The notes beneath the pieces were generated by a model. It was not told the origin of the DNA and searched no databases. It saw only the letters and a program-made list of their open reading frames with translations. The position numbers and the translations under genes were made by a program. From Planctomycetota bacterium (GTDB lineage Bacteria > Planctomycetota > UBA1135 > GCA-002748355), in contig JAWKUM010000003.1 of NCBI GenBank assembly GCA_041398545.1, forward strand, positions 222,385-286,384: 64,000 nt of DNA, written 5' to 3'. Positions 18,570 to 58,293 of the stretch are shown in pieces. The number at the start of each line of letters is the position of its first letter. The first letter of the stretch is position 1.

Positions 18570-18722
18570 GGGCTCCTGGCCCCCCCAGCGGGCCATCGGC
18601 CCCCTCCCAGGGGGCATTGTGGATTCGGGGGCAGAGGTTAGGCTTCAAGCTTCAGGTCCGTCCGACCTGGCTCCTCTGGCATGCCAATCTGCGCTTCTGG
18701 ACCTTGGACCGAGAGGTCAACC

Positions 18723-19439
18723 ATGCGGGTTCAGCTCCCTTCACGCCGAGCAATGGTGATCTCGCGAGGGATTGCATCGCTGCTGTGTTCCTTGGTCATC
18801 GTGCCTTCCGGCTTTTGCGCTTGCCCTCAGACCAGCACTCCCGGAGTTTCGGTCACGGCAAGGACGCTGACCAAGGTCAACTGCTACGCCAAGGCTGAGT
18901 CGGAGGCACGGGTCAAGGAAGTTCCCGCTGACAAGGCGTTCGCGAGGTCCGTGAAGGTGGCCTCCTCCGAATCCAACGCCAGAGCGGACGTTACGGCAGG
19001 GCATTGGACGCGAGAAACACCCACTCGCGCGACGACGATGGTTTACGTCTCGAGCGCAGTGTCACTCCGATTGTCGAAGAAGGCCAATGCCATAGTCCAC
19101 ACCGCCGCAGACACAACGAACCCTGTCAAACATGGGTTCGAGTTCAAGCTGACGGCACCAGTCAAGACAACTGGAACACTGACCTTGACGATCTCCGGCC
19201 GTAGCACGCAGGGCGCGACGGATCAGTTCGATATCGTCGTCAAAGGGGATGGATGGTCCAAGAAACTCGCCTCGAGCAGCGACAAGCGCTTCGCGAAAAC
19301 GGTACTTCCCAACGTCTCCATTGACCCGACCGGGCTGATCATCGAAATCCACGGGTTGGCCGTGGCCAGCCTCACCGACAAAGGTCAATGCTCAGCCATG
19401 GGGCGCGCTTCAGCCCGCTTCGACGTCATCAGGCAATAG
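18723..19439 (+). CDS. Secreted hypothetical protein
   Basis: Track ORF 18681..19439; start preferred at MRVQLPSRRAMVISRGIASLLCSLVIVPSGFCA (signal-peptide-like). Ser/Thr/Ala/Lys-rich beta-type sequence. No motif recognised. Confidence 0.55.
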   Translation: MRVQLPSRRAMVISRGIASLLCSLVIVPSGFCACPQTSTPGVSVTARTLTKVNCYAKAESEARVKEVPADKAFARSVKVASSESNARADVTAGHWTRETPTRATTMVYVSSAVSLRLSKKANAIVHTAADTTNPVKHGFEFKLTAPVKTTGTLTLTISGRSTQGATDQFDIVVKGDGWSKKLASSSDKRFAKTVLPNVSIDPTGLIIEIHGLAVASLTDKGQCSAMGRASARFDVIRQ

Positions 19440-19450
19440 GGGGAGACCAG

Positions 19451-21463
19451 ATGCGGCTCAATTCGGTCTTCATTGTCGGTCTAGCATCTCTGGGCTTGTC
19501 TTGGCTCGGTGTGGGAGTCAGGGCTCAGGCTGTCATCCAAGTTTCCTCGTATGGCGCTGTTGTCAACGACGGCCAGAATGACCTTCAAGCGATCCGTGCT
19601 GCCATTGACGATCTGCCCGCCTCCGACGCGATCCTGCGCTTCGAGATCGGAACCTACGATCTCTATCCACGGGAGGAGCCTCCTACCGGACTCGGAACCC
19701 CGACTCCGGCCGGGGTGTTCCCGGTCAAGACCATGTTCGGCCTCGTGTCCAAAGCGAGGATCACCGTTGACGGCCAGGGCGCAGTCCTGATGTGCCATGA
19801 CTTCCTGCCCGACCAGCCGATCAACTCCAGCTACTACAACCTGTTTGCTTGCACCGATTGCACCGACATCGAGATCAGGGACCTGACGGTCAACATGTCG
19901 CGACTGCCGTACACGATCGGAACGTGTACGCAGATTGCCGGCGACCCAGTGGTAACAAATGTAGCGAACAGGTATTTCAGGATCGACATCGATCCGAGCT
20001 TCTTTGCCACCGGGTCTCTGCAAAACATGACAATGCACACCCTGTTGAATTGGCGGTCTGGGCATCCGAACGGCCAGAATTTCTATTACGTCCAACAGCA
20101 ACCAGCAAAAACGTTTGGCTCTGACTTTTATGTTGGCCAGATTACATCTGGAACGATTCACGACATCAAGGGGAGGTTCCCAATTGGGCCAGGCACATTT
20201 CCTAACGATCCTGGCTGGGTAATGATGAACGAGCTCAAGGCTCCCGGAGCCATCGGGCCAGATGATCATGGGAGGTTGCAGCTCGGAGACCAAGTCGTGA
20301 TTGCGCATCAGTCTAGTTACTACATCGCGTTCATGTTCGTGGATTGCACCCGTAGCTTTCTCACAAGCCTCACGGTGCACACCTGGCCGGGAATGGCGGT
20401 CAATCTCCTGCGCGACCGAGATGTCGTCATCGATGGCCTGCAGGTTCTGCCAGATCCGGCACGGCCATGGCCGGTTACGACTACTGCCGATGCCATCCAT
20501 GTCGCCAACACCGCAGGGACTTTGCAGGTCCATGATTGCCACCTCGAGGGGATGCTCGACGATGGATTCAATTCGTACGTGAATGCCCTGCCTGTAACAG
20601 CAATCGTCTATTCAAACGGGGTTCCCACCGTAAACGCCGTGCCCCGGTTCCCCCTGTGGATCTTCGACCCTGGTTCGACCTGGGAGTTCTACGATCAAGA
20701 CATGATCCCACTTGGGACACGACCGCTCGTCCTTTCGCAGAATGTCACGAATCCATCCACCCATCTGTTGACGTTCGCTAGCGTCCCTATTGGGAACATA
20801 GCCTACGTCTGCAATCTTTCCCATTTTCCGGATACGACAGAGATCGTCGGGACAACCGTCGCCCGGAATCGTGGCATGGGGTTGATCCTGAGGAGGAACA
20901 CCCATGTCGACCAGTGCCTTTTTGAATGGATCACCGGTTCCGGGATCGTGGTCTCTCCTTCGATTGGCTTATGGGACGAAGGGCCTGGCGGGTCGAACGT
21001 CCTGGTCGAAGGCTCCCTGTTACAATATTGCAACCGCGGTTGGGGGTTACACGACGGGGGAGCCACTGAGGGTACGATCAGCGTAAAAACACACAAGTTT
21101 GTCAATGGAGCTTGGACAACCGGTCCTGTGGGCTCGATCCAGGACGTCGTCCTGAGGAACCTGACGATCCAGGATTCTGGGGGTGCCTTGGTGTGCGTCC
21201 GGTCCACGAACAGGTTCACGATCGATCAGTGCGCCCTGGGTGCATGTAATGATCTTGGATATTTGCTCACGGATCGAACAGCAGATCCACAAGATGGGGG
21301 GAGGGATCGGTACGCTGCCGAGTCTCTTTTGTTCTTTACCGAGTCGCAGGACATCACGATTACGAACAACTTCTTCACGGGAGCGGGGACCTATCTCAAC
21401 TCCGACAGAACTTGGCCGATGATCTTCGGATTTTATACCAAAACCAACAACACCGGATTCTAG
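19451..21463 (+). CDS. Secreted right-handed beta-helix (pectate-lyase-fold) protein
   Basis: Track ORF 19388..21463, starting at MRLNSVFIVGLASLGLSWLGVGVRAQA (signal peptide). The N-terminal VSSYGAVVNDGQNDLQAIRAAID resembles the pectate_lyase_3 / GH28-like entry motif. Repeated ~22-25 aa Asn/Gly/hydrophobic turns downstream. Confidence 0.7.
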   Translation: MRLNSVFIVGLASLGLSWLGVGVRAQAVIQVSSYGAVVNDGQNDLQAIRAAIDDLPASDAILRFEIGTYDLYPREEPPTGLGTPTPAGVFPVKTMFGLVSKARITVDGQGAVLMCHDFLPDQPINSSYYNLFACTDCTDIEIRDLTVNMSRLPYTIGTCTQIAGDPVVTNVANRYFRIDIDPSFFATGSLQNMTMHTLLNWRSGHPNGQNFYYVQQQPAKTFGSDFYVGQITSGTIHDIKGRFPIGPGTFPNDPGWVMMNELKAPGAIGPDDHGRLQLGDQVVIAHQSSYYIAFMFVDCTRSFLTSLTVHTWPGMAVNLLRDRDVVIDGLQVLPDPARPWPVTTTADAIHVANTAGTLQVHDCHLEGMLDDGFNSYVNALPVTAIVYSNGVPTVNAVPRFPLWIFDPGSTWEFYDQDMIPLGTRPLVLSQNVTNPSTHLLTFASVPIGNIAYVCNLSHFPDTTEIVGTTVARNRGMGLILRRNTHVDQCLFEWITGSGIVVSPSIGLWDEGPGGSNVLVEGSLLQYCNRGWGLHDGGATEGTISVKTHKFVNGAWTTGPVGSIQDVVLRNLTIQDSGGALVCVRSTNRFTIDQCALGACNDLGYLLTDRTADPQDGGRDRYAAESLLFFTESQDITITNNFFTGAGTYLNSDRTWPMIFGFYTKTNNTGF

Positions 21464-21473
21464 GAGAGAATCC

Positions 21474-23192
21474 ATGTCACGCTGGATCACTCGCAGGCCC
21501 CCATGCGGATGGGCATGGCTCCCCGGCTCCGTGGGCAGGTGCATGCTTCTGCTTTTTGCTACCTTGCTCCTGGTCGCCAACCCGGAGGCGCAGACACATC
21601 TCTACACCCACTACGGGGACAAGGCCGGACAGTGGTTCGGTGGTAGCGTCGCCATCGTCGGCGATACCGACAGGGATGGGTTCGATGACTACGCGACCAC
21701 CTCGGAGTGGTACCCGCCTTCGGCCTCTGGTGGAGATGCGGTGCGGCTGTACTCAGGGCGAGACGGGCATTTGATCGGCAAGGTGCCGCTGCCTGGCCCC
21801 GGGAGCGCCACATCAGTATCTGGGTTGGGGGACATGGACAGTGACGGCCATGCTGACTTCGGGATCTTGATCAATACGACGGTGCTGATTGGATATCAGT
21901 TTCATTCAGGAAAAACCATGCAGATGATTGCCAAGGGATCTTGGCCCTTGTCGCTACAAAACGGAAAAATCCGCCCAATTGCAGATCTTGATCACGACAA
22001 TATTCCCGACGTTATTATTAGTAGTTCAGAGTATTCAAACTCTGATCGGGTCGTGATCGTATCTGGAAAGTCAGGGAAGATAATCTTGGATCTCAAGCCT
22101 GGCGGGCTCAACTACACCTATTTTGGCCATTCGGTTTCAAGGGCTGGAGATGTAAACGGAGACGGGATCGAGGACTTCCTGGTCGGCGATCCGCTGTTCG
22201 GAAGCAATCCAACCTATAATTTCTACGGGCCAGGACGCGCATGGTTGTTCTCTGGGGCGAACGGAGGGGTCATCTACACGTTCTGGGACACGACCTACAA
22301 ACTTCCGTCTCCGTCGCCAGGCTTTGGGAGTTCCGTATGCGGTTGCGGTGATCTTGACGGTGACAAGGTTCCCGATCTCGCCATCGGGTGCCCGGGATTC
22401 GACGGCAACGGCACGGACGCCGGCGCCGTGTTTATCTACTCGGGCAAGACCGGTAATCTCTATCGTACCCTGCACGGCCCTGTCGCAGGATCATACTTGG
22501 GGTGGTCGGGGGCCAACGTGGGCGATTGGAACCGGGACGGCTATCCTGATCTGGCTTGTGGTGGGCAAACATTTCTTCCAGGCAATCAAGCTGCAGGTGT
22601 CGTGCGAGTCATTTCTGGCAAGGACGGAAAGGAGTTCGCCACCATTGTCGACGACAAGGTTGATATGGGATTGGGATCGTGCCTGAACGCCGATGGAGAC
22701 ATCGACGGAGACGGCGTCCGGGATCTGGTCGCGGGTCTGTCGCCAGCATCCTGGGCAAGCAACAACTTGTGGTACTTCAAGTGCTACTCCGGCGCCGGCC
22801 GCTCGCTCTGGAGCGATACGCACAGGGTCTCTGTGGCCGCTCAGGATATGCAGGTCCTGACCCTCGAGGCCGGGGCCGGCCAGGCGGGCAACCCCTATCT
22901 CGTGCTCGGCAGCCTTGCCGGGATCAACCCAGGGCTACAACTAGGTACGCATCTCCTTCCTCTCAACCTCGATCCCTACCTTGTCTGGACGGCGACCGTG
23001 CCCAACAGCCCCTTCCTGCAGGGCTCACTCGGGCTGCTCGATGCAAAGGGGACGGCCAAGATCCAGTTCGTGGCTGGAGCGGGCTTTCCTGCTGGATTGG
23101 CCGGCCTGCGCATGGATCACGCAGCCGTAGTCTTCGGCAACACGGGGATCGCCACGGTCAGCGATTGGGTCCCGCTGCTGCTGGAGAAATAG
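21474..23192 (+). CDS. FG-GAP / integrin-alpha-like beta-propeller repeat protein, secreted
   Basis: Repeated FG..(V/L)...GD.(D/N).DG..D motifs (GDTDRDGFDD, GDMDSDGHAD, GDVNGDGIED, GDLDGDKVPD, GDWNRDGYPD, GDIDGDGVRD). Hydrophobic N-terminus CMLLLFATLLLVA. Confidence 0.8.
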   Translation: MSRWITRRPPCGWAWLPGSVGRCMLLLFATLLLVANPEAQTHLYTHYGDKAGQWFGGSVAIVGDTDRDGFDDYATTSEWYPPSASGGDAVRLYSGRDGHLIGKVPLPGPGSATSVSGLGDMDSDGHADFGILINTTVLIGYQFHSGKTMQMIAKGSWPLSLQNGKIRPIADLDHDNIPDVIISSSEYSNSDRVVIVSGKSGKIILDLKPGGLNYTYFGHSVSRAGDVNGDGIEDFLVGDPLFGSNPTYNFYGPGRAWLFSGANGGVIYTFWDTTYKLPSPSPGFGSSVCGCGDLDGDKVPDLAIGCPGFDGNGTDAGAVFIYSGKTGNLYRTLHGPVAGSYLGWSGANVGDWNRDGYPDLACGGQTFLPGNQAAGVVRVISGKDGKEFATIVDDKVDMGLGSCLNADGDIDGDGVRDLVAGLSPASWASNNLWYFKCYSGAGRSLWSDTHRVSVAAQDMQVLTLEAGAGQAGNPYLVLGSLAGINPGLQLGTHLLPLNLDPYLVWTATVPNSPFLQGSLGLLDAKGTAKIQFVAGAGFPAGLAGLRMDHAAVVFGNTGIATVSDWVPLLLEK

Positions 23193-23282
23193 AACGCAAC
23201 ATTCGCTGGCCGGATCCGCTCGGTCGCGGTCAGCCAGTGGTGACAGGCGAGGGTCTCGTCTTGCACGGGCCCGCTTGCGGCG

Positions 23283-29476: not shown

Positions 29477-29542
29477 GGCCGGGCCCCGGGGCCCCCCGGC
29501 AGGCCCTGGATGTCAGGGTTGTGTTCGGGTAGCGTCCCGGCC

Positions 29543-30994
29543 ATGGAAAGGGCTTCCCCCGCGACCGGGCGGGGGGGAGCGCGACGGCGCTCCCCGACCC
29601 GGTCGGCGCTGCTCCTGCACCTCGACATCGACGCCTTCCTGGCCTCGGTCGCCCAGCTCGTCGAGCCGTCCCTGCTCGGCCTGCCGGTCGTCGTCGGCAG
29701 CGGCGTCGTCGCCTCGCGCTCGTACGAGGCCAAGGCCCGCGGCGTCGAGACCGCGATGCCGATCGCCGAGGCCATGCGGCGCTGCCCCGGCCTCGTGCTC
29801 CGCGAGGGCGACGCCTTCGTCGCCGAGCGCTTCCGCCGGCGCGTCGCGGCGATCCTCGGCGGCTTCGCGCCGCTGGTCGAGGTCGGCTCGCTCGACGACA
29901 TGTACGCCGACCTGTCGGGGCTGTTCGCCGAGGAGCTGTGGCAGGCGCCGCCCGACGCCACGGGCCTCGCGCCGCTCGACCACGCGCTGGCCGCGTGGAC
30001 CGCGGCGCTGCGCGCGCGGGTGCGCGGCGAGACCGGCCTGTCGGTGTCGCTCGGCCTCGGCCCGACGCGGACCCTGGCGCGGCTCGCGACCGACCGGGCC
30101 AAGCCCGGCGGGACCTTCCGCGTGCGGCCCGGCGAGGAGCGCGCCTTCCTCGACCCGCTGCCGGTCGCCAAGCTGCCGGGCGTCGGGCGCCGGACCGCGG
30201 CCGAGCTCGAGCGCTACCGCATCCGCACGGTCGGCGAGCTGCGCCTCGTCGACCGCGCCCTGCTCGAGGAGTGCTTCGGCCGCCGCGGCGGCGACCTGTG
30301 GCTGCGCGCGCGCGGGCTGCCGGCCGGCTCCAAGGACCTCGTCGTGCACGGCGGCGCCGAGCACGGGCGCGCCGGCGGGGCCTTCGGCGCCGACGGCCTG
30401 GCCAAGGAGCTGTCGCGCGAGACGACCCTGGTCGAGCCGTCGGCCGACCCCGGCCTGCTGCGCGCGATGCTGTCGTACCTCGTCGACCGCGCGAGCCACC
30501 GGCTGCGCGGCCAGGACCGGCTGGCCGGCCGGCTCGAGCTGCGCCTGGCGGCCTGGGCCGCCGAGGCGGCCGCCCGGCCGGCGCTGCGCCGCGCGCGCGC
30601 AGCCTCGAGTGGGCGCGCCGGCGCGGCGGCTGCGCGAGCGAGCGCCGGCGCGGCGATGAGCTCGTCGCCGTGGCCCTGGCCCTGCTCGACGAGGCCGTCG
30701 GGTCCCGGCGGCTGCTCGCCGGCGGCGCCGGCGTGTGCCTGCAGGACCTCGAGCCGGCGCACCCCCGCGCCAGGGGCCGACCTGTTCGCGTTGCTGGTCG
30801 CCGAGGGCGGGGCGGGCCTCCGCGGCGACGGCCTTCAGGCGCTGCGGGCGCGCCGGCTCGACGAGAGCCTCGACGCCGTCCGCGCACGCCACGGCTTCGG
30901 CGCCGTCGTCGCCGGGGCCTCGATCGCCCTGCTCGGGAGCCTGCCGCGCACGCGCGACGGCTTCCGGCTCTACGCCCCGTCCCTGAGCCTGTGA
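29543..30994 (+). pseudogene. Y-family DNA polymerase (DinB/ImuB-like) with an out-of-frame central segment
   Basis: Track ORF 29510..30994, starting at MERASPATG. Motifs: LHLDIDAFLASV, SLDDMYADLSG, LPVAKLPGVGRRTA. Between ~30540 and ~30780 the plausible sequence (DELVAVALALLDEAVGSRRLLAGGAGVCLQDLEP) lies in another frame (track ORF 29938..31434), then returns to the original frame (GADLFALL...). Confidence 0.7.
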
Positions 30995-33900
30995 CCGCCC
31001 TGCTGCGCTGCCTGAGCCACTTCAGCTTCCTGACCGGGACGCTGGCGCCGAGCGAGCTGTGCTCGCTGGCCGCGCGCCACGACGTCGCCCACGTCGGGCT
31101 GTGCGACTGGGGCGGTTGCATGCAGCCCGCTGTTCGCGGCCGAGGCCGCCCGCGTCGGCCTCCACGCCCTGCACGGGGTCGTGCTCGGCGGCGGCGCCGG
31201 CATGGTCACGTCATACCTGGCGACGAGGACGGCCTCCTGCTCGCTCTGGCCGCGTCGTGTCGGACTGGCCGGCTCGAGAGACCTTCGGCGTGGCCGACCG
31301 GGTCGCGGCCCTGGTCGACCTCGTCGCCGCCAACCGCGACGGCCTGTTCGTGCTGGCCGAGCGCGTCGCCGGGCTGCTGGCCGCGCTCGGGCCCGACGAC
31401 CTGCGCGTGGCCCCGCCGCTGCAGCCTGGCCTGACCGCCTGCGCCCTCGGCGAAGGCCGCGGCGCGCGCCCGCGCTCGAGCGTCGCGGACGGCGGCCGGC
31501 CCGGGCGGGCGCGCCCGCGGCCGACCCCGGGCGACGACGTCGCGGCCGACGCGCGCAAGGTCCTCGACCTGCCGCGGCCCGACCCGCGGCACCGCCTGCT
31601 GGCCTTCGCCGAGGCCCGTGGCGTGGTCGCCGTGGCCGCGCCCTGGTCGCCTACGGCGGGCCGGCGACCGCGCGCGCCACCGCCTCGCGACGGCCTGCAA
31701 GAAGGGCACGCTGGTCGACCTCGTCGGCGACCGCGCGCTGGCCCTGCGCGGCTCGTTCTTCCCGACGCCGGCCGAGCTCCGCGAGGGCTACGCCGACCGG
31801 CCCGCGGCCCTGGCCGAGGCCGAGCGCCTCGCCCTGCGCTGCACCCTCGACCTGTCGCGGCCGCGGCGCATCGTGTTCCCGTCGGCCGCCGGCGCCCTCG
31901 GCGGCGACCCCGCCGAGGCCGAGGGGCGCGCGGCCGCGGTCCTGCGCGCCCGCGCCGAGGCCGGGTCTTTTCCGCGGCTGTTCGATCGCGCCGGAGCGCC
32001 GGCCCGGGAGCCGCCCGGCCGAGGCCCGGCGCCGGCTCGAGCAGGAGCTCGGCACGATCGCCGAGCTCGGCTTCGCGCCGTACTTCCTCGTCGTCGACGA
32101 GATCGTCCAGCTCGCCCGCGCCCACGGCATCCCGGTGTTCGGCCGCGGCTCGGCCGCCGACAGCCTGGTCGCGCACCGCCTCGTCACCGACGCCGACCTC
32201 GCTGCGCTACCGGCCAGCTTCGAGCGCTTCCTCAACGCCGACCGTTTCCGCCGCGGCGAGGGCGACCCGCTACCTCGACGTCGACCTCGACTTAGCGCGC
32301 CGCCGCGACGAGCCGTCGGCCTCGTCGCGCGCCGCTTCGATGGCGACCGCGTCGCGCTGCTGTCGACGGTGCCGACGCTCGGCTTCCGCGCGGCTCGCGC
32401 GAGGTCGCGCGGGCCCAATGGCCTGCCGCGCCGCTCGACGAGGCCGACCGCTGCGCCCGCGGCCTGCCGCGGACGCTCGACCCCGCCACGGTCGCCGCCG
32501 CCGCGCCGGCGACCCGCCGCTCGCGCCGATCGCGGCCCGCGCCGGAGTTCGGGCGGCGGCTCGCCGGCGCCGCCGGGCCTCGAGGAGCGCCGCCGCGAGG
32601 CGCGCATGCTGCGCGGGGCCTTCGCGCTCGTCGGCGCGCACCGCTGCCTCGGCCTGCACCCGGGCGGGACCGTGCTCGCGCCGGTGCCGGCCCGCGACCT
32701 GATGCCGCTCGAGCGCGCGGCCAAGGGGCTCGTCTGCGTGCAGTGGGACAAGCACGTCGCCCCGCGCATGGGCCTCGTCAAGATCGACCTGCTCGGCAAC
32801 CACGGTCTGTCGATCTTCGAGGACGCGCAGCGCGAGCTGCTGCGGCTCGGCGTGTCGCTCGAGGCCGTCGAGGCCCTGCGCGAGACGCCCGAGGAGGACC
32901 CGCAGGCGGCCGCGCTGGCCCGGGCCGGGCGCACGCTCGGCGTGTTCCAGGTCGAGTCGCCGGGCATGCGCGCGCTCCTGACCCGCGTCGACGCGGGCCG
33001 CTGCGACGACGTGATCCGCGCGCTGGCGCTGATCCGGCCGGGCCCGGCCGGCTCCGGCATGCTCGACCGCTACGTGCGGCGCGTGCGCGGGCTCGAGCCG
33101 ACGCCGGCCCTGCCGCCCGGCCTCGGGCCCGTGCTCGGCGACAGCCGCGGCGTGATGCTGTACCAGGAGGACGTCATCCACGTGCTCGCGGCCCTGACCG
33201 GGCTGCCGCTCGGCCAGGCCGACCTGCTGCGCCGCGACCTCGGCAAGGAGTGCCGCGGGGCGGGGCGACGGGCCGGTGCCGGCGACGGGCCGGCGACGGC
33301 CCGCTTCCACGCGCTGTGCGCGGCCAGGGCGTCGACGCGGCCACGGCCGACGCCTTCTGTCCAGCTCGCCCGCTTCGGCGGCTACTCGTTCAACAAGGCC
33401 CACGCCGTGACCTACGGCCGCCTGGCCTGGCGCATCCTGCGGGCCAAGGCGCAGCAGCCGGCCGCGCTGTTCGCGGCGATCCTGGCCAACGACACCGGCT
33501 ACCACGACAAGCGCGTCTACGTCGAGGAGGCCCGCCGCCTCGAAGCGTGCCGGTGCTCGCGCCCTGCGTACCGCTGGCGCTCGGCTTCCGCGCCGAGCGC
33601 CAGGGCGGCACCGGGGCCGCGCGCTGCGCGTCGGCCTCGGCGAGGTCAAGGGCCTGCCCGAGGCCTTCGGCGAGGCCTCGTCGCCGACCGCGAGGACCGC
33701 GGGCCGCATTTCGCCGCCGACGAGCTCGTCGGCCGGGTCGGGGAGCGCGGCCTGACGGTCGAGGAGGACTGGATCGAGCGGCTGATCCTCGTCGGCGCCT
33801 TCGACCTGCTCGAGGGCACGCGGCCCGAGAAGCTGTGGCGCTTCCGCGTCGGCTTCGGCCGGCGCCGCCGCCGCGCGGCCGCGCCCGGCCCCGCCGGCGG

Positions 33901-34348
33901 CGAGCTGTTCCCCGGCGCGCTCGAGCGCCGCGCGCCGATCATCCCCTGCCTGCCCGAGTATTCCGACGCCGAGAAGGCGCGCCTCGAGGTCGAGCTGCTC
34001 GGCTACCCGATCCGCGCGCACGCGATCACGTACGCGCCGCCGCTCGACGACGCCGGCGGCTGCCTGCCGCTGAGCGAGGTCCCGGCCCACGTCGGCCGGT
34101 CGGTGCAGGTCCTCGGCTGGCTCGCGGCCACGCGCCGCCACCGCACGCGCGGCGGCGAGTGGATGTGCTTCCTGACCCTCGAGGACGCCGGCGGCATGGT
34201 CGAGGCCGTGCTGTTCCCGGCGGTGTTCCGGCGCTGCGGCGGCGAGCTGGCCGGCCAGGGCCGCTACCGCCTGCGCGGCCGCGTCGAGCTCCGCGAGGGC
34301 GCCGTCGCCCTCCACGCCGACATGCTCGAGCGCGTCGACGGGGAGTGA
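30991..34348 (+). pseudogene. dnaE2: Error-prone DNA polymerase III alpha (DnaE2-like), heavily frameshifted
   Basis: GTG at 30991 overlaps the upstream stop (GTGA). Pol III alpha motifs are scattered over all three + frames: LSHFSFLTGT, ELGTIAELGFAPYFLVVDEIV, GRGSAADSLV, FERFLN, RYLDVDLDL, GVFQVESPGMR, GGYSFNKAHAVTYG, ALRVGLGEVKGLPE, and an intact C-terminal OB region (...WMCFLTLEDAGGMVEAVLFP...). I traced more than ten frame switches by eye. Confidence 0.8.
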
Positions 34349-44490: not shown

Positions 44491-46374
44491 ATGACGAGCG
44501 TCGAGACCCCTGGAACGGGGACGAGCAGGGAAGTCGAGGTCCTGGACGAGGCGGTCATCCGCTTCGCCGGCGACTCCGGTGACGGCATGCAGCTCACCGG
44601 CACGCAGTTCACCAACACGGCCGCCCTGCTCGGCAACGACCTGGCGACCTTCCCGGACTACCCGGCCGAGATCCGTGCCCCTGCGGGCACGCTGCCGGGC
44701 GTGTCGGCGTTCCAGATCCGGTTCAGCAACTTCGACATCCACACGCCGGGCGACAAGCCCGACGTGCTCGTCGCGATGAACCCGGCCTCGCTCAAGGTCC
44801 ACCTCGACGAGCTCAAGCGTGGCGGCGTCCTGATCGTCAACACCGGCATGTTCCGGGCCAAGGAGATCAAGATGGCCGGCTTCGAGGTGAACCCCCTCGA
44901 GGACGAGAAGCTGTCCCTGTCGCAGCACTACCGGCTGATCTCGGTCGACCTCAACCAGCTCACCAACGAGACCCTCAAGGAGAGCCCGCTCGACGCCCGC
45001 GGCAAGATGCGCTGCAAGAACATGGCGGCGCTGGGCATCCTGTTCTGGCTCTACAACCGTCCGCTCGAGCCGACGATCGAGGAGATCCAGGCCAAGTTCG
45101 GCAAGAAGCCGGAGATCGCCGAGGCCAACATCAGCGTGCTCAAGGCCGGCTACCACTACGGCGAGACGGCCGAGCTGCTGCAGCACACCTACCGCGTCGA
45201 CAAGGCCGAGCTGCCCTCGGGCATCTACCGCAACATCAACGGCAACGACGCCACGGCCTACGGCATGGTCGCCGCCAGCAAGCTCGCCGGCGTGCCGCTG
45301 TTCCTCGGCTCCTACCCGATCACCCCGGCCAGCGACATCCTGCACTTCCTGAGCGGGATGAAGAGCGAGGGCGTCGTGACCTTCCAGGCCGAGGACGAGA
45401 TCGCCGGCATCTGCTCCGCGATCGGTGCGGCCTGGGCCGGCAACCTCGCCGTCACGACCTCGTCCGGCCCGGGCATCGCCCTCAAGGGCGAGGCCATCGG
45501 CCTGGCCGTCATGACCGAGCTGCCCCTCGTCATCGTCAACGTCCAGCGCGGCGGGCCGTCGACCGGCCTCCCGACCAAGACCGAGCAGGCCGACCTGTTC
45601 CAGGCCATCTACGGCCGCAACGGCGAGTGCCCGCTGCCGGTCCTGGCCGCGGCCACGCCGAGCGACTGCTTCAACATGGTCATCGAGGCCTTCCGCATCG
45701 CGACCAAGCACATGATCCCGGTCATGCTGCTGACCGACGGCTACCTCGCCAACGGCTCCGAGCCGTGGCGCCTGCCCGAGGTCGCCGACCTGCCGCGGAT
45801 CGACGTGCGCTTCGCCGGACCGGCCGACCTCGAGGACGGGCACTTCCTGCCGTACAAGCGCGGCGCCGACAGCCTCGCGCGGCCCTGGGCCAAGCCGGGC
45901 ACGCCCGGCCTCGAGCACCGCATCGGCGGCCTCGAGAAGGCCGACATCACCGGCAACGTCAGCTACGACCCGGACAACCACTTCCACATGGTCCGGCTGC
46001 GCCAGGAGAAGGTCGACCGGATCGCCGACGACATCGTCGAGCCCGAGCTGTTCGGCGAGCAGTCGGGCGGCCTCGTCGTCGTCGGCTGGGGCTCGACCTA
46101 CGGCGCGATCTGCGGCGGCGTCAACCAGGCCCGCAGGCGCGGCCTCAAGGTCTCGCGCCTGCACCTGCGCCACCTCAACCCGCTGCCCAAGTCGCTCGGG
46201 GACACCCTCCGGCGCTTCGACAAGGTGCTCGTCCCCGAGATGAACCTCGGCCAGCTGGCCACGGTGCTGCGCAGCCGGTTCCAGGACATCCGGTTCGAGC
46301 AGCTCAACAAGGTCAACGGCCGCCCGTTCAGCAACACCGAGATCCGCGAGAAGATCGAGGAGGTGCTCGCGTGA
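44491..46374 (+). CDS. korA: 2-oxoglutarate/2-oxoacid:ferredoxin oxidoreductase, alpha subunit
   Basis: 627-aa protein with the typical N-terminus (IRFAGDSGDGMQLTG...FPDYPAEIRAP.GT) and a central YPITPAS motif. Followed by a coupled beta subunit. Confidence 0.9.
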   Translation: MTSVETPGTGTSREVEVLDEAVIRFAGDSGDGMQLTGTQFTNTAALLGNDLATFPDYPAEIRAPAGTLPGVSAFQIRFSNFDIHTPGDKPDVLVAMNPASLKVHLDELKRGGVLIVNTGMFRAKEIKMAGFEVNPLEDEKLSLSQHYRLISVDLNQLTNETLKESPLDARGKMRCKNMAALGILFWLYNRPLEPTIEEIQAKFGKKPEIAEANISVLKAGYHYGETAELLQHTYRVDKAELPSGIYRNINGNDATAYGMVAASKLAGVPLFLGSYPITPASDILHFLSGMKSEGVVTFQAEDEIAGICSAIGAAWAGNLAVTTSSGPGIALKGEAIGLAVMTELPLVIVNVQRGGPSTGLPTKTEQADLFQAIYGRNGECPLPVLAAATPSDCFNMVIEAFRIATKHMIPVMLLTDGYLANGSEPWRLPEVADLPRIDVRFAGPADLEDGHFLPYKRGADSLARPWAKPGTPGLEHRIGGLEKADITGNVSYDPDNHFHMVRLRQEKVDRIADDIVEPELFGEQSGGLVVVGWGSTYGAICGGVNQARRRGLKVSRLHLRHLNPLPKSLGDTLRRFDKVLVPEMNLGQLATVLRSRFQDIRFEQLNKVNGRPFSNTEIREKIEEVLA

Positions 46375-47411
46375 CCACCACCGAACCCGCCAAGCTCCGC
46401 GACAAGGACTATGCCAGCGACCAGGACGTGCGCTGGTGCCCCGGCTGCGGCGACTACGGCATCCTCAAGGCCGTGCAGGTCGCCTTCGCCGACCTCCAGC
46501 TCCCCCGGGAGAAGGTCGCCTTCGTGTCGGGCATCGGCTGCTCGAGCCGGTTCCCGTACTACATGGACACCTACGGGTTCCACGGCATCCACGGCCGGGC
46601 CCCGGCGCTCGCCACGGGCGTCAAGCTCGCCAACCCCGAGCTGACCGTGTGGGTCGCGACCGGCGACGGCGACGGGCTGTCGATCGGCGGCAACCACTTC
46701 ATCCACATGCTGCGCCGCAACATCGGCCTCAAGGTCCTGCTGTTCAACAACAGGATCTACGGGCTGACCAAGGGCCAGTACTCCCCGACGTCCGAGGTCG
46801 GCAAGGTCACCAAGTCCACGCCGATGGGCTCGCTCGACTCGCCGTTCAACCCGCTGGCCCTCGCGCTGGGCTCGGGCACGACGTTCGTCGCCCGCGGCAT
46901 CGACATCATCCGGCCCAAGCTGCAGGAGATCATCAAGGAGGCCCAGGCCCACGAGGGCACGGCCTTCATCGAGATCTTCCAGAACTGCAACATCTTCAAC
47001 GACGGCGCCTTCGAGCACGTCACCGACAAGAAGATCCGCGACGACCTGCTCGTCGAGGTCCGCCACGGCGAGCCGCTCGTCTACGGCAAGGAGCACGACA
47101 AGGGCCTGATCTGGACCGGCAGCCGCCTCGAGGGCGTGCACATCGGCCAGCACAGCGACGTGCTCGGGCGCGAGGTCACCGGCGAGGACATCGTCGTCTG
47201 GGACGCCGAGGACCCCAACCCGACCATGGCCTTCGCCCTGACCCAGCTCCGCGAGGGCATCGACCCGACCCCGGTCGGCGTCATCCGCAACGTCAAGGAC
47301 CACCTCCCGTACGAGCGCCTGGTCCACGACCAGATCCACATGGCCCAGCAGAAGCGCAAGCCCCGCACCCTCGAGGAGCTGCTCCACAGCGGCCGCACCT
47401 GGAAGGTCTGA
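46371..47411 (+). CDS. korB: 2-oxoglutarate/2-oxoacid:ferredoxin oxidoreductase, beta subunit (TPP-binding)
   Basis: Distal part of track ORF 45627..47411. The GTG at 46371 overlaps the korA stop. Motifs WCPGCGDYG and GDGDGLSIGGNH. Confidence 0.9.
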   Translation: MTTTEPAKLRDKDYASDQDVRWCPGCGDYGILKAVQVAFADLQLPREKVAFVSGIGCSSRFPYYMDTYGFHGIHGRAPALATGVKLANPELTVWVATGDGDGLSIGGNHFIHMLRRNIGLKVLLFNNRIYGLTKGQYSPTSEVGKVTKSTPMGSLDSPFNPLALALGSGTTFVARGIDIIRPKLQEIIKEAQAHEGTAFIEIFQNCNIFNDGAFEHVTDKKIRDDLLVEVRHGEPLVYGKEHDKGLIWTGSRLEGVHIGQHSDVLGREVTGEDIVVWDAEDPNPTMAFALTQLREGIDPTPVGVIRNVKDHLPYERLVHDQIHMAQQKRKPRTLEELLHSGRTWKV

Positions 47412-47431
47412 CCCGACCTCCGGGTCCCCAC

Positions 47432-47465
47432 GAGCCCGTCCGCCGCGCCCGCGGCCGACGGGCTC
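47432..47465 (+). terminator. Hairpin terminator candidate after korB
   Basis: GAGCCCGTC-16 nt-GACGGGCTC, a 9-bp stem starting 21 nt after the stop. Confidence 0.45.
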
Positions 47466-47525
47466 GCGCATGTACCGTCGGAGCGCGGGCGGTGGAGATC
47501 TTCTGACGGGCTTCGTGGCGCCCCT

Positions 47526-47654
47526 CGCGGAGCCGTCGTCGGGGACATCCCGGCTGGTCTCGGAGGGGTGACGGGGAGAGGACAATAGGCGAATCGGCTC
47601 GTAGCCCGTCACCCAAGTCGCCTGCGCCGGGATGTCCCATCGACGACAGGCTCC
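47526..47654 (+). repeat. 129-bp structured repeat, copy 1 (self-complementary arms)
   Basis: 116/129 positions match the reverse complement of 48089..48217 in an ungapped manual alignment. Internal arms GTCGTCG-GGGACATCCCGG / CCGGGATGTCCC-at-CGACGAC and GGGTGACGGG / CCCGTCACCC. Confidence 0.8.
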
Positions 47655-48088
47655 GGTCGGCATCACACGCGATCCGGCAGGGAACCTCCCACGGCCCGTC
47701 CAGGACTTCCGACCGGGAGGGTGCTGCGCGGTCGAGGGGATGAGGAGGCGGGACGTGCCCGGCCAGGGAGGTGGCATCGACCGCTTTCGACCCTCGACAC
47801 GCATGGTCGGACGGATGGACCCGGAAGCCGCCGCTGCCCCCTCTTGATCAAAGGTGCGGCAGGCGACCGTGCATCGCCGACCGGAGTCGAAGCTCGTCTC
47901 CGTCTCGTCGACATCGGGCGAACCACCTCGCACCAGTGACTCGTGGCCCGATGGTCCCCGACGACAACGAACCGAAGGCTTCAAGGCAGGACGTCCCCGC
48001 TCCTCCGTCGGACGATCCTCGACAACGCCGGTCCGTGCCTCGACTCCTCGGTCCCGGTCCCGTCGTCTCCCTCCGTGGAATCCTGCCA

Positions 48089-48217
48089 GGAGCCTGTCGT
48101 CGGAGGGACATCCCGGCGCAGTCGACTTGGGTGACGGGCGATGACGGGATTCGCCTATTGGAGTCCCTCCGTCACCCCTCCGAGACCAGCCGGGATGTCC
48201 CCGACGACGGCTCCGCG
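48089..48217 (-). repeat. 129-bp structured repeat, copy 2 (inverted relative to copy 1)
   Basis: See copy 1. The 13 mismatches lie mainly in the central part of the element, around a conserved CAATAGGCGAATC core. Confidence 0.8.
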
Positions 48218-48334
48218 TGCATCCCCACGGAGCGTTGCAGGATCGTCCCCGTGCAGTCCAGTCCGTCCGACCGCCGGCCGAGTGGACGTCAATCGCCAGG
48301 CTTCAGGCGGTCCCGCCGGCCCGTCGACCGCGGG

Positions 48335-49096
48335 CTACATGCCCTCGAGCTGGCGCTTGAGGTAGTCGAGGTCGTCGGCGAACTGGGCGAGGGCGAGGCG
48401 GTCGCCCTCGGGGAGGTCCTGGAACTGGGCGGTGACGACGACCTGGGCGCGGCCGTCCTCGTCGCCGGTCTCGACCTCGAGGACCTTGGCGCGGACCTCG
48501 AAGAAGCCCTTCTTGCACAGCTTGACCTGGAACTTGACGTCGACCTCCGAGCCACGGGGGAAGACGCGCGCCAGGTCGTCGGCAGGGGTGTCGACGCCGA
48601 CGCTGCCGCTCCAGCGGAAGCGGATGCGCTCGTGGTCGACCGAGAGGACGGTGCCGAGGCCCTTGCCGTGCCGGACGAGGCCGGCCAGGGCGGGGTCGGC
48701 GGGGGCGAACAGGACCTGGCTCTCGCCGATGACGTCGACGAGGCCCTGCTCCTGCAGGTGGGACAGGAGGTACTCCTGGGCCTGGGGCAGGTCGTCGAAC
48801 ATCGGGACGATGCGGTCGACGCCGACCTTGGTCAGGACGTCCCGCGTGAACCGGCTCGGCTCGGCGATGCAGAGGTCGCCGCCCTCGGCCTTGAACCGCT
48901 TGTAGGACTTGATGATCGCCCCGAGCGCCGTCGAGTTGATGAACTTGACGAGCCGCAGGTTGAGGATGACGTAGAGCATCCCCTCCTGGACCAGCTTGTC
49001 GACCTCCTCGACGAGCTTGGGGCAGTAGAAGGTGTCGAACTCGCCGCGGAGGCGGAGCTCGGCGAAGTGCTCGTAGATCAGCTTGTCGATCTTCAT
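48335..49096 (-). CDS. STAS-domain (anti-sigma-antagonist-like) protein with a C-terminal PilZ-like beta-barrel
   Basis: N-terminus LRLRGEFDTFYCPKL...LVKFINSTALGAII...RFTRDVLTKVGVDRIVPMFD is STAS-like. The C-terminal ~120 aa (GTVLSVDHERIRFRW...VDVKFQV...FEVRAKVLEV) looks PilZ-like but lacks a clean RxxxR/DxSxxG pair. Confidence 0.7.
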   Translation of the reverse strand: MKIDKLIYEHFAELRLRGEFDTFYCPKLVEEVDKLVQEGMLYVILNLRLVKFINSTALGAIIKSYKRFKAEGGDLCIAEPSRFTRDVLTKVGVDRIVPMFDDLPQAQEYLLSHLQEQGLVDVIGESQVLFAPADPALAGLVRHGKGLGTVLSVDHERIRFRWSGSVGVDTPADDLARVFPRGSEVDVKFQVKLCKKGFFEVRAKVLEVETGDEDGRAQVVVTAQFQDLPEGDRLALAQFADDLDYLKRQLEGM

Positions 49097-56552: not shown

Positions 56553-56702
56553 AACCGGAACCGGAACCGGAACCGGAGCCGGAACCGGAGCCGGAACCGG
56601 AACCGGAACCGGAGCCGGGACCGGAACCGGAACCGGGACCGGAACCGGAACCGGGACCGGAACCGGAACCGGAACCGGAACCGGGACCGGGACCGGAACC
56701 GA
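56553..56702 (+). repeat. Hexanucleotide tandem array A: 25 units, consensus AACCGG
   Basis: Counted by hand: AACCGG x16, GACCGG x5, AGCCGG x3, AACCGA x1, perfectly phased. One + frame reads (Glu-Pro)n and closes with TGA at 56705-56707. Confidence 0.95.
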
Positions 56703-56786: not shown

Positions 56787-56942
56787 CTCCAGCTCCCGCT
56801 CCGTCTCCGGATACGGCTCCGTCTCCGTCTCCGGCTCCGGATGCGTCTCCGGTTGCGGTTCCGTCTCCGGATACGGCTCCGGATGCGTCTCCGGCTCCGG
56901 AACCGTCTCCGGTTCCGGTTCCGTCTCCGTCTCCGTCTCCGG
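56787..56942 (+). repeat. Hexanucleotide tandem array B: 26 units, consensus CTCCG(G/T)
   Basis: Units are CTCCGG/CTCCGT with variants TTCCGG, TTCCGT, ATACGG, ATGCGT, TTGCGG, AACCGT. It is related to array A by reverse complementation (CTCCGG vs AGCCGG; TTCCGG vs AACCGG). It ends 24 nt before the asnS start. Confidence 0.95.
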
Positions 56943-56966
56943 TCCCCACATCCATCGACGACCGCG

Positions 56967-58293
<1,327 letters not shown>

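What the first reader, a model, noticed from the sequence alone, without database searches (positions are those of the whole stretch)
47526..48217. Pair of inverted 129-bp hairpin-forming repeats flanking a 434-bp ORF-less segment
Positions 47526-47654 and the reverse complement of 48089-48217 align without gaps at 116 of 129 positions (manual count), and weaker similarity continues ~15 bp outward. Each copy is itself a long imperfect palindrome. The outer arms are GTCGTCG/GGGACATCCCGG pairing with CCGGGATGTCCC/CGACGAC. The inner arms are GGGTGACGGG pairing with CCCGTCACCC. An invariant CAATAGGCGAATC sits near the apex. The 13 mismatches lie mainly in the central part of the element. Together the copies delimit a ~690-bp unit in the 920-bp gap between korB and the STAS gene. 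The interior has lower G+C and no credible ORF. Possible identities are a non-autonomous transposon (MITE) with very long terminal inverted repeats, a REP/BIME-like element, or structured sRNAs.
Basis: seen in the sequence. Interest (0 to 1): 0.62.

Follow-up and report, generated by a model that had tools for sequence, protein, structure and literature searches.

The report
Orphan inverted pair of long DNA hairpins
Two inverted, 90%-identical copies of a 129-base hairpin-forming sequence bracket 434 bases of non-coding DNA, inside about 900 bp that only this planctomycete lineage carries between two convergent genes; it is most likely a relic or non-autonomous mobile element of an ordinary kind, but mobility could not be shown.

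Summary
Positions 47526-47654 and the reverse complement of 48089-48217 match at 116/129. Each copy folds into a 36-bp, three-block hairpin, and the 434-bp interior has no coding or structural signal. The host is an uncultured Planctomycetota MAG. In seven relatives with the same korB/STAS convergent pair the stop codons lie 18-55 bp apart; here the gap is 923 bp, so the whole spacer is a lineage-specific gain. Of the 13 differences between copies, 12 fall in unpaired positions. All 71 intact stem pairs are Watson-Crick, with no G-U, and both strands fold equally well. This points to a constraint at the DNA level rather than an RNA gene. I found no third copy in the 64-kb window, GTDB representative genomes, JGI metagenomes, plasmids, phages or IMG/VR, and no match to its translations among 5.8 billion protein clusters. 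There is no target-site duplication, no transposase, recombinase or Y1-HUH gene nearby, and no Rfam hit. Best reading (about 0.4): a foldback or MITE-composite-like insertion, possibly a gutted REPtron/TIRtron-type unit, that would incidentally place the same strong hairpin in both 3' UTRs. An in-situ inverted duplication kept as a read-through barrier is the main rival. Interest is low to moderate.

The parts
47526..47654 (+). Left 129-nt palindromic module; its sense is defined by CAATAGGCGAATC on the + strand. Stems are 47529-47541 with 47641-47654 (13 bp, one bulged A), 47542-47554 with 47626-47638 (13 bp, GGGACATCCCGGC), and 47566-47575 with 47605-47614 (10 bp, GGGTGACGGG). There is an 11x11 internal loop and a 29-nt apex at 47576-47604.
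48089..48217 (-). Right 129-nt module in inverted orientation, 116/129 identical to the left one. It has the same three stems; the terminal pair of the inner stem is broken by a G-to-A change at element position 50.
47583..47595 (+). Invariant apex 13-mer CAATAGGCGAATC. Its partner lies at 48148-48160 on the - strand.
47510..47669 (.). Extended left arm of the inverted repeat (160 nt, 84% complementary to 48074-48233).
48074..48233 (.). Extended right arm of the inverted repeat.
47655..48088 (.). 434-bp interior. It shows no codon-position GC signal, no Pfam hit in any of six frames, no homolog in the protein collection, and no excess RNA structure (z +0.4 to +0.7).
47431..47466 (+). Short GC-rich hairpin 20 nt after the korB stop. 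It has 15 pairs, DNA dG -20 kcal/mol, z -4.5, and no U-tract. It is terminator-like and belongs to the lineage-specific spacer.
47412..48334 (.). The whole 923-bp korB/STAS spacer. The same junction is 18-55 bp in seven relatives.
46371..47411 (+). Context: korB-type 2-oxoacid:ferredoxin oxidoreductase beta subunit (TPP_enzyme_C). It is convergent with the STAS gene.
48335..49096 (-). Context: STAS-domain (anti-sigma-factor antagonist-like) gene. It is 100% identical to NCBI MEZ5988009.1 from a Planctomycetota MAG.

Best explanation
The 923-bp spacer is DNA gained in this planctomycete lineage. Its core (47526-48217, or 47510-48233 with the weaker extensions) is a foldback-type, non-autonomous element or a relic of one. 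It consists of two inverted copies of a 129-nt palindromic module bracketing 434 bp of non-coding, unstructured DNA. That geometry matches a composite of two MITE-like units, or a REPtron/TIRtron-type unit whose central gene is gone. Each module is built from two about 50-nt arms that share three blocks: GGAGCC(T)GTCGTCG, GGGACATCCCGGC and GGGTGACGGG. I read these blocks as the recognition or structure determinants. They are kept perfectly complementary and identical in all four arms, while the loops have diverged. Shown: the anatomy, the lineage-specific presence, the confinement of substitutions to unpaired positions, the strand symmetry, and the absence of coding capacity. Inferred: that the DNA arrived by transposition or recombination rather than arising in place, and that a trans-acting enzyme recognises the blocks. 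A secondary consequence follows from the geometry. Read-through from korB (+) or from the STAS gene (-) would copy the same-sense module 114 and 117 nt after the respective stop codon. Each transcript would then carry a hairpin of about -86 kcal/mol that could block read-through or 3' exonucleases between the convergent genes. Whether the region is transcribed is untested.
For: Seven relatives that keep korA-korB >< STAS-SpoIIE/GAF synteny have 18-55 bp between the stop codons, against 923 bp here. The unit is bounded by 129-160-nt inverted repeats. The interior has no coding signal, no Pfam hit, no homolog and no excess structure. 12 of the 13 differences between copies lie in the 57 unpaired positions and only 1 in the 72 stem positions (binomial P=4e-4; P=0.016 if runs are counted as 8 events). 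71 of 72 stem cells are Watson-Crick, with no G-U. The + and - strands fold about equally well as RNA and as DNA. That is what symmetric DNA ends would show, and is unusual for an RNA gene. Long hairpin-forming, TIR-bearing non-coding elements and REPtron/TIRtron units, including ones in Planctomycetes, are established classes (PMC3733652; PMC6006769). GGGGACAT, present in two of the four arms, matches 7 of 8 positions of the GGGG[AT][CG]A[CG] consensus reported for TIRs flanking TIRYT genes (PMC6006769).
Against: There is no third copy in the 64-kb window by pattern search, blastn or a covariance model without filters; the next best hit scores 18 bits at E=0.1. There is none in GTDB representative genomes with the same interior, JGI metagenomes, plasmids or phages or IMG/VR. 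Six-frame translations of the module and of the interior match nothing among 5.8 billion protein clusters. I could find no direct target-site duplication at either the 129-nt or the 160-nt boundaries (sequence). No transposase, recombinase or HUH-Y1 motif appears in the window ORFs examined. About 100 bp on each side of the repeat are also lineage-specific and are not explained by a single 0.7-kb insertion. The nearest relatives are distant (66% STAS identity or less), so the 'empty site' evidence spans a long evolutionary distance.
Confidence: 0.4

Rival explanations
1. In-situ origin with a host function. A palindromic, terminator-like sequence in the korB/STAS spacer was duplicated in inverted orientation, for example by template switching at the hairpin. 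Both copies are kept by selection as read-through barriers, 3'-end stabilisers or cruciform-forming insulators between the two convergent genes.
For: The layout is nearly two-fold symmetric. Each gene is followed by a short GC-rich hairpin and then, 114 or 117 nt after the stop codon, by the same-sense 129-nt hairpin. The stems are conserved while the loops, flanks and interior have diverged. In relatives the 18-25-bp spacer is itself a small hairpin bridging both stop codons, so a hairpin at this junction is ancestral. A 14-nt string at the left module's inner edge (AGGCTCCGGTCGGC, 47648-47661) is identical to the spacer of relative L008/L009. A 16-mer is shared in inverted sense by the two outer flanks (p about 0.03). 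No other copy exists anywhere searched.
Against: There are no U-tracts and no terminator-like sites by the consensus scan. A pure hairpin function would not need the invariant 13-nt apex motif or the conserved, non-complementary 11x11 internal loop. It also does not explain where 434 bp of interior DNA came from. The absence of any G-U pair is unexpected for a structure selected at the RNA level. The 14-mer match has a post-hoc chance probability of roughly 0.005 by my own estimate and may be coincidence.
Confidence: 0.25
2. Decayed REPtron/TIRtron. The two modules are the inverted structured ends that once flanked a Y1-HUH (RAYT/TIRYT or class 3 TnpA-Y1) gene. That gene has since been deleted or degraded. 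This is a specific sub-case of the mobile-element reading.
For: The geometry, inverted hairpin-forming repeats about 0.4-0.5 kb apart, is that of REPtrons and TIRtrons. Class 3 Y1 genes flanked by atypical secondary structures occur mainly in Planctomycetes, and Rhodopirellula baltica has many such genes with flanking repeats (PMC6006769; PMC3733652). There is a 7/8 match to the GGGG[AT][CG]A[CG] TIR consensus. The absence of a target-site duplication fits HUH-type transposition (established knowledge of IS200/IS605).
Against: None of the six frames of the interior hits Y1_Tnp or any other Pfam family even at E<=10, and none has a homolog. No residual codon periodicity remains. A regex for HUH...Y motifs finds nothing in the window. 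Only two of the four arms carry GGGG, and the last consensus position does not fit. The published supplements contain no GGGGACA-type TIR.
Confidence: 0.1
3. Two paralogous small-RNA genes, or one sRNA locus flanked by structured elements.
For: The predicted hairpins are very stable. The apex carries an invariant 13-nt loop motif that could act as a seed or a protein-binding site.
Against: There is no Rfam match beyond a noise-level miRNA hit at E=0.39. There are no G-U pairs and no strand preference in folding. No promoter-like or terminator-like sites are found. No conservation exists in any relative. With only two sequences, covariation cannot be tested.
Confidence: 0.07
4. Invertible segment. 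The 129-160-nt inverted repeats mediate flipping of the 434-bp interior, by RecA or a site-specific invertase, as a phase-variation switch.
For: Inverted repeats flanking a short ORF-less segment are the defining geometry of invertons.
Against: No recombinase gene is found among the neighbouring or other examined ORFs. The interior has no promoter-like site. Both flanking genes point into the segment, so a promoter inside it would only produce antisense RNA. Known inverton repeats are usually 10-40 bp (my own knowledge).
Confidence: 0.05
5. Assembly artefact of the MAG, such as a foldback chimera or mis-join at a palindrome.
For: The source is a metagenome-assembled genome.
Against: The two copies differ at 13 of 129 positions, and the differences are non-randomly placed. 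An artefactual inverted duplication would be identical. The flanking gene order is exactly that of the relatives.
Confidence: 0.02

Closest known systems
ERIC / IRU elements (127-bp imperfect palindromes of Enterobacteriaceae and Vibrio) and YPAL-type palindromic MITEs
   Same: About 127-130 nt, an imperfect palindrome that folds into one long hairpin, non-coding, intergenic, and lying in 3' regions that can be co-transcribed with neighbouring genes (class description in PMC3733652; the rest is my own knowledge).
   Different: The sequence is unrelated and the phylum is different. ERIC elements occur in tens to hundreds of dispersed copies. Only two adjacent copies are known here, and no empty-site polymorphism is seen among close strains.
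Bacterial MITEs (Correia/NEMIS, RUP, Nezha) and MITE-flanked composite units
   Same: A small non-coding unit whose ends are inverted repeats (here about 50-nt arms sharing three blocks) and which folds into a stable hairpin. Two inverted copies bracketing a passenger segment resemble MITE composites.
   Different: There is no target-site duplication, no demonstrated multicopy family, and no IS with matching ends. The arms are interrupted by an 11-nt block with 0/11 identity between arms.
REPIN/REP-RAYT systems and TIRtrons (TIRYT) or class 3 TnpA-Y1 loci
   Same: Hairpin-forming inverted doublets, and inverted structured repeats about 0.4-0.5 kb apart as in a REPtron/TIRtron. Such systems are reported in Planctomycetes. 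GGGGACAT resembles the GGGG[AT][CG]A[CG] TIR consensus (PMC3733652; PMC6006769).
   Different: No Y1-HUH gene or remnant lies between the repeats. No conserved GTAG or CGTC tag or CnGA foot is identified. The module is about 4 times longer than a REP. Copy number is unknown.
Bidirectional or hairpin terminators between convergent genes
   Same: Strong GC-rich hairpins placed downstream of both stop codons. Relatives have a small hairpin bridging the two stop codons.
   Different: The hairpins are 129 nt long with an 11x11 internal loop and a 29-nt apex, have no U-tract, lie 114-117 nt from the stops, and are separated by 434 bp.
About 110-nt MITE-like family in Solirubrobacterales MAGs (L001, L002, L003, L005, L006), found here
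   Same: Hairpin elements carrying the same 12-mer, GGGACATCCCGG with CCGGGATGTCCC, in both arms.
   Different: The interiors are unrelated and A+T-rich. The 12-mer is terminal there but 16 nt inside the repeat here. The phylum is different. Sharing a 12-mer is within what chance allows in a 596-Gb scan (my estimate: about 0.3-3 families).

Membership tests
MITE | Small (under about 300-700 bp) element without coding capacity | tested here: met
   The modules are 129 nt and the whole unit is 692-724 bp. There is no codon-position GC signal, no Pfam hit and no homolog.
MITE | Terminal inverted repeats | tested here: met
   Each module has complementary arms with 36 bp in three blocks. The unit as a whole has 129-160-nt inverted ends.
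MITE | Direct target-site duplication flanking the element | tested here: not met
   No direct repeat is found at the 47525/47526 and 48217/48218 boundaries, at the 47509/47510 and 48233/48234 boundaries, or around either single module (sequence; alignment).
MITE | Multiple dispersed copies in the genome | tested here: inconclusive
   The other 63 kb of the window hold none, and no public collection searched holds one.
MITE | Cognate autonomous IS with matching ends | tested here: inconclusive
   No transposase appears among the window ORFs scanned. The rest of the genome was not searchable.
REP / BIME / REPIN | 20-40-bp palindromic unit with an unpaired GTAG or CGTC tag (PMC3733652) | tested here: not met
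   No short tagged unit exists. GTAG occurs once, in the apex of the left copy only, and reads CATCG in the right copy.
REP / BIME / REPIN | High copy number and an associated RAYT gene | tested here: inconclusive
   The window holds two copies only and no HUH-Y1 motif. The rest of the genome could not be tested.
REPtron / TIRtron (TIRYT, class 3 TnpA-Y1) | Y1-HUH transposase gene between the inverted structures | tested here: not met
   Six-frame Pfam scan of the interior at E<=10 gave nothing. The homolog search gave nothing. There is no HUH...Y motif.
REPtron / TIRtron (TIRYT, class 3 TnpA-Y1) | TIR motif GGGG[AT][CG]A[CG] (PMC6006769) | tested here: inconclusive
   GGGGACAT matches 7 of 8 positions in two of the four arms. 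The other two arms read TGGGACAT and AGGGACAT.
Any Rfam RNA family | Covariance-model score at or above the gathering threshold | tested here: not met
   No family reaches its threshold in the window. The best sub-threshold hit is MIR1883, at 23 bits against a threshold of 128.
Inverton (invertible promoter switch) | Inverted repeats flanking a promoter-bearing segment next to an invertase gene, with both orientations present in the population | tested here: inconclusive
   The inverted repeats are present. No promoter-like site is found and no recombinase among the ORFs scanned. Orientation heterogeneity needs the reads.
Intrinsic terminator | GC-rich stem-loop followed by a U-tract | tested here: not met
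   No terminator-like site is found in 47300-48450 on either strand.

The most novel reading that the evidence does not exclude
The 129-nt modules would be the first glimpse of an undescribed planctomycetal family of strand-symmetric DNA hairpin elements recognised through the three conserved blocks. One version has them as ends mobilised in trans by a Y1-HUH (TIRYT or class 3-like) enzyme. Another has them as dedicated cruciform or hairpin insulators installed between convergent genes. In either version the GGGACATCCCGG block shared with Solirubrobacterales hairpin elements would reflect a common recognition motif rather than chance.
Probability: 0.1. Interest if true: 0.5.

Novelty: new member of a known kind. 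Interest (0 to 1): 0.27.

Why it matters
If the modules prove to be mobile, they would add a family of long palindromic elements in Planctomycetota. Repeat elements are barely catalogued in that phylum, although Y1-HUH 'REPtron-like' loci with atypical structures are already known to be concentrated there. The locus would then give a clean example of such an element expanding a 20-bp convergent-gene junction to 0.9 kb. If instead they arose in place, the locus shows a shared bidirectional hairpin being replaced by two separate, selectively maintained hairpins. Either outcome is incremental. On present evidence it is a two-copy orphan in one MAG, with no link to phenotype.

Tried and rejected
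- **Streptomyces or other actinobacterial origin.** Rejected: the STAS protein is 100% identical to a Planctomycetota MAG protein, and all close homologs are planctomycetal.
- **Known RNA family.** Rejected.
- **Family members via a genome-contig scan with both outer 12-mers.** This returned only Solirubrobacterales and actinobacterial hairpins with unrelated interiors. A metagenome scan with an arm-specific pattern returned only chance one-arm matches.
- **Plasmids, phages and IMG/VR.** Nothing found.
- **Spurious-ORF trick.** I searched chimeric queries made of the open reading frames through the module and through the interior against the 5.8-billion-cluster protein collection. Nothing scored at E<=10.
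- **Fetching the source contig by exact protein look-up.** It is not on record.
- **Residual palindromy of the flanks or of the interior halves.** Only a 16-mer in the flanks (p about 0.03) and nothing in the interior.
- **DGR template/variable repeat pair.** Rejected: the mismatches are not adenine-specific and no reverse transcriptase is nearby.
- **Integron attC, protelomerase tel site, retron msd, IS110 bridge RNA, rolling-circle sso.** I considered these from memory and dropped them. The required partner gene or motif is absent from the window, and the orientation or architecture does not fit.
- **TIR sequences in the supplements of PMC3733652 and PMC6006769.** No GGGGACA or GGGACATCC strings.
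- **Literature search for the 12-mers and 13-mers.** Only irrelevant primer hits.

Full report
**Observation**

The feature is real and is described accurately. The gapless alignment of 47526-47654 (+) with 48089-48217 (-) has 116 identities out of 129. The 13 mismatches fall at element positions 50, 52, 55-57, 71-73, 76, 78, 96 and 114-115. The repeat finder extends the inverted repeat to 47510-47669 / 48074-48233, 160 nt at 84%, and blastn gives E=5e-46.

Each copy is an imperfect palindrome with 36 base pairs in three blocks:
- GGAGCC+GTCGTCG pairs with CGACGAC(A)GGCTCC.
- GGGACATCCCGGC pairs with GCCGGGATGTCCC.
- GGGTGACGGG pairs with CCCGTCACCC.

These blocks are separated by a 0x2 bulge and an 11x11 internal loop. 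The hairpin is closed by a 29-nt apex that contains the invariant CAATAGGCGAATC.

Folding energies lie far below those of shuffled controls on both strands:

| Molecule | Energy (kcal/mol) | z-score |
|---|---|---|
| RNA | -85 to -90 | -5.3 to -7.5 |
| DNA | -43 to -45 | about -6.5 |

The 434-bp interior shows no sign of function:
- It has no codon-position GC signal: 0.6-0.75 at every position, against GC3 of 0.98-0.99 in the neighbouring genes.
- It has no Pfam hit in the listed ORFs, and none in any of six frames even at E<=10.
- It has no homolog in the protein collection.
- It has no excess RNA structure, with z of +0.4 to +0.7.

The interior is 68.7% and the whole gap 70.3%, against 71.5% for the window and 64-81% for other apparent intergenic segments.

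**Host and context**

The STAS protein downstream is 100% identical to NCBI MEZ5988009.1 from an uncultured Planctomycetota MAG, on a contig of 296,567 bp. The next best homolog is only 66% identical, so the lineage is poorly sampled.

The local gene order is korA, korB (+), then the spacer, then STAS (-), SpoIIE/GAF phosphatase (+), an amidohydrolase, two unknown genes and a Na+/H+ antiporter. That order is conserved in the relatives.

In seven relatives with the korB >< STAS junction (L007, L008/L009, L021, L025, L027, L028/L029), the two stop codons are 18-55 bp apart. In the closest relatives the spacer is a small hairpin that bridges both stops. Here the spacer is 923 bp, so essentially all of it is a lineage-specific gain.

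No transposase, integrase, invertase or HUH-Y1 motif was found among about 40 window ORFs scanned or by a motif regex.

**Copy number and distribution**

Within the window there are only the two copies.
- Pattern searches allowing up to 2 mismatches and word-7 blastn both find nothing else.
- A covariance model built from the two copies and run without filters also finds nothing. The copies score 162 and 159 bits, their opposite strands 52 bits, and the next hit 18 bits at E=0.1.

Outside the window, no member of this family was found.
- Plasmids and phages gave no match, and IMG/VR gave none.
- A scan of 185,579 GTDB representative genomes, requiring both outer 12-mers 60-90 nt apart, returned six loci in Solirubrobacterales or actinobacterial MAGs. 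Five belong to one family of about 110 nt with an A+T-rich interior, and the sixth is another hairpin. All have interiors unrelated to ours.
- A scan of the JGI metagenomes for one arm (GGGACATCCCGGC...GGGTGACGG) returned only chance single-arm matches.
- Translating the module in its open frames, and separately the interior in all six frames, then searching 5.8 billion protein clusters for spurious ORFs that run through other copies, gave nothing at E<=10.

The source contig could not be fetched, so the rest of the source genome remains unsearched. With zero extra copies in 63 kb, a family of up to a few hundred copies per genome cannot be excluded. This limit is my own estimate.

**What the two copies say about constraint**

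Twelve of the 13 differences lie in the 57 unpaired positions. Only one, the terminal pair of the inner stem, lies in the 72 stem positions. The binomial probability is 4e-4, or 0.016 if adjacent changes are counted as 8 events.

All 71 intact stem cells are Watson-Crick, with no G-U pair. Neither strand folds consistently better than the other. The two arms of a module share the three blocks but have 0/11 identity in the spacer between blocks 2 and 3. That spacer is nevertheless conserved between the copies.

Together these points indicate that the paired blocks are maintained and that the maintenance is symmetric at the DNA level. Transposon ends or protein- and cruciform-related DNA sites would behave this way. 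A structure selected only as RNA would not be expected to.

With only two sequences, covariation cannot be assessed.

**Mechanism**

The best-supported reading, at confidence about 0.4, is that the spacer holds a foldback-type non-autonomous element or its relic. It consists of two inverted 129-nt palindromic modules bracketing passenger or decayed DNA.

This matches the geometry of a MITE composite or of a REPtron/TIRtron whose central gene is gone. The second option is a lead from the literature:
- Y1-HUH genes flanked by long inverted repeats or atypical secondary structures are described, and class 3 TnpA-Y1 genes occur mainly in Planctomycetes.
- Many such flanking repeats share the consensus GGGG[AT][CG]A[CG] (PMC3733652; PMC6006769).
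- GGGGACAT, present in two of our four arms, fits 7 of its 8 positions.

The interior carries no trace of a Y1 gene, so membership is not established.

The weaknesses of the mobile reading are as follows:
- There is no target-site duplication.
- No further copies are known.
- About 100 bp of additional lineage-specific DNA lie on each side of the repeat.

The main rival, at about 0.25, is an in-situ inverted duplication of a terminator-like palindrome, retained as a barrier between the convergent genes.
- The near-symmetric layout supports it: the modules start 114 and 117 nt after the two stop codons, and each gene also has a short GC-rich hairpin of its own.
- An ancestral hairpin exists at this junction in the relatives.
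- Two small sequence coincidences also fit: a 14-mer shared with the L008/L009 spacer and a 16-mer shared in inverted sense by the flanks.
- Against it, there are no U-tracts. A simple hairpin role also does not need the conserved apex motif or internal loop.

Whatever the origin, the geometry means that read-through from either gene would transcribe the same-sense module. Each transcript would form a hairpin of about -86 kcal/mol. This is inferred and has not been tested.

The remaining readings are less likely, for the reasons listed under the rival explanations: sRNA genes (0.07), an inverton (0.05) and an assembly artefact (0.02). The artefact reading is contradicted by the 10%, non-randomly placed divergence between the copies.

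**Comparison with known families and novelty**

In form, the modules are closest to ERIC/IRU- and YPAL-type palindromic elements and to MITEs in general. In arrangement, they are closest to MITE composites or REPtron/TIRtron loci. The sequence matches none of these families.

The defining features of MITEs (TSD, dispersed copies, cognate IS) and of REP/REPIN systems (tagged short units, RAYT gene, high copy number) are either not met or could not be tested. I therefore file it as a probable new member of the broad, known kind 'palindromic non-coding intergenic repeat or foldback element', not as a member of any named family.

The GGGACATCCCGG block shared with the Solirubrobacterales elements is within what chance can produce in a 596-Gb scan. 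I do not build on it.

**Verdict**

Interest is low to moderate (0.27). The one decisive and easy test is a search of the remaining contigs of the source MAG for further copies and for a transposase flanked by the same hairpins.

Noticed in passing
window 19000-23200: There is a low-GC island of 55-58% in a 71.5% GC window. It carries three + strand ORFs (18681-19439; 19388-21463 with a beta-helix hit; 21474-23192 with FG-GAP repeats). It looks horizontally acquired, and no mobility gene was seen.
   Followed up: partly
window 56553-56701 and 56787-56943: There are two hexanucleotide arrays: (AACCGG) x about 25 at 90% match and (CTCCGG) x about 26 at 72%. They are mutually inverted, 73% complementary over 95 nt. 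They lie just upstream of and overlapping the 5' end of a class II aminoacyl-tRNA synthetase ORF.
   Followed up: no
window 56841-58293: The class II aaRS (tRNA_anti-codon + tRNA-synt_2) appears split over at least two reading frames, 56841-57605 and 57766/57988-58293. This suggests a frameshift, either a pseudogene or a MAG consensus error.
   Followed up: partly
window 29510-34348: A Y-family polymerase-like gene (IMS/impB family, 29510-30994) is followed by a DnaE-type Pol III alpha paralog (31181-34348). This is the arrangement of an imuB-dnaE2 damage-inducible mutagenesis cassette.
   Followed up: no
window 47648-47661 vs L008 and L009 korB/STAS spacer: The 14-nt string AGGCTCCGGTCGGC, which spans the inner edge of the left module, is identical to most of the 18-bp spacer between korB and STAS in relative L008/L009. 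It may be coincidence (my rough post-hoc estimate is p about 0.005) or a trace of the ancestral spacer.
   Followed up: partly
window 47448-47463 and 48319-48334: The two outer flanks of the spacer share CCCGCGG[C/T]CGACGGGC in inverted sense (15/16). On the left it lies within the korB-proximal hairpin, and on the right it directly abuts the STAS stop codon. 8 of 300 shuffles score as high.
   Followed up: partly
L001:1062-1171, L002:1174-1284, L003:5654-5764, L005:5875-5984, L006:3725-3834: An intergenic hairpin (MITE-like) family of about 110 nt occurs in Solirubrobacterales MAGs. It has the termini GGGACATCCCGG[T/C]AGGG and an A+T-rich interior in genomes of 70-72% GC. At least four copies lie in one MAG, and no consistent TSD is seen.
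   Followed up: partly
L005:2067-2161: The same Solirubrobacterales MAG holds another 95-nt hairpin element, with outer stem GGGAGGGACGGGGACACCCCC and inner stem AAATGACGGCC. Its GGGGACAC fits the published TIRYT-TIR consensus GGGG[AT][CG]A[CG] exactly.
   Followed up: no
L007, L008, L009, L021 korB/STAS junctions: In the relatives, the 18-21-bp spacer between the convergent korB and STAS stop codons forms a short GC hairpin that overlaps both stops (for example GCCGAG...CTCGGC in L021). It looks like a shared bidirectional terminator.
   Followed up: no
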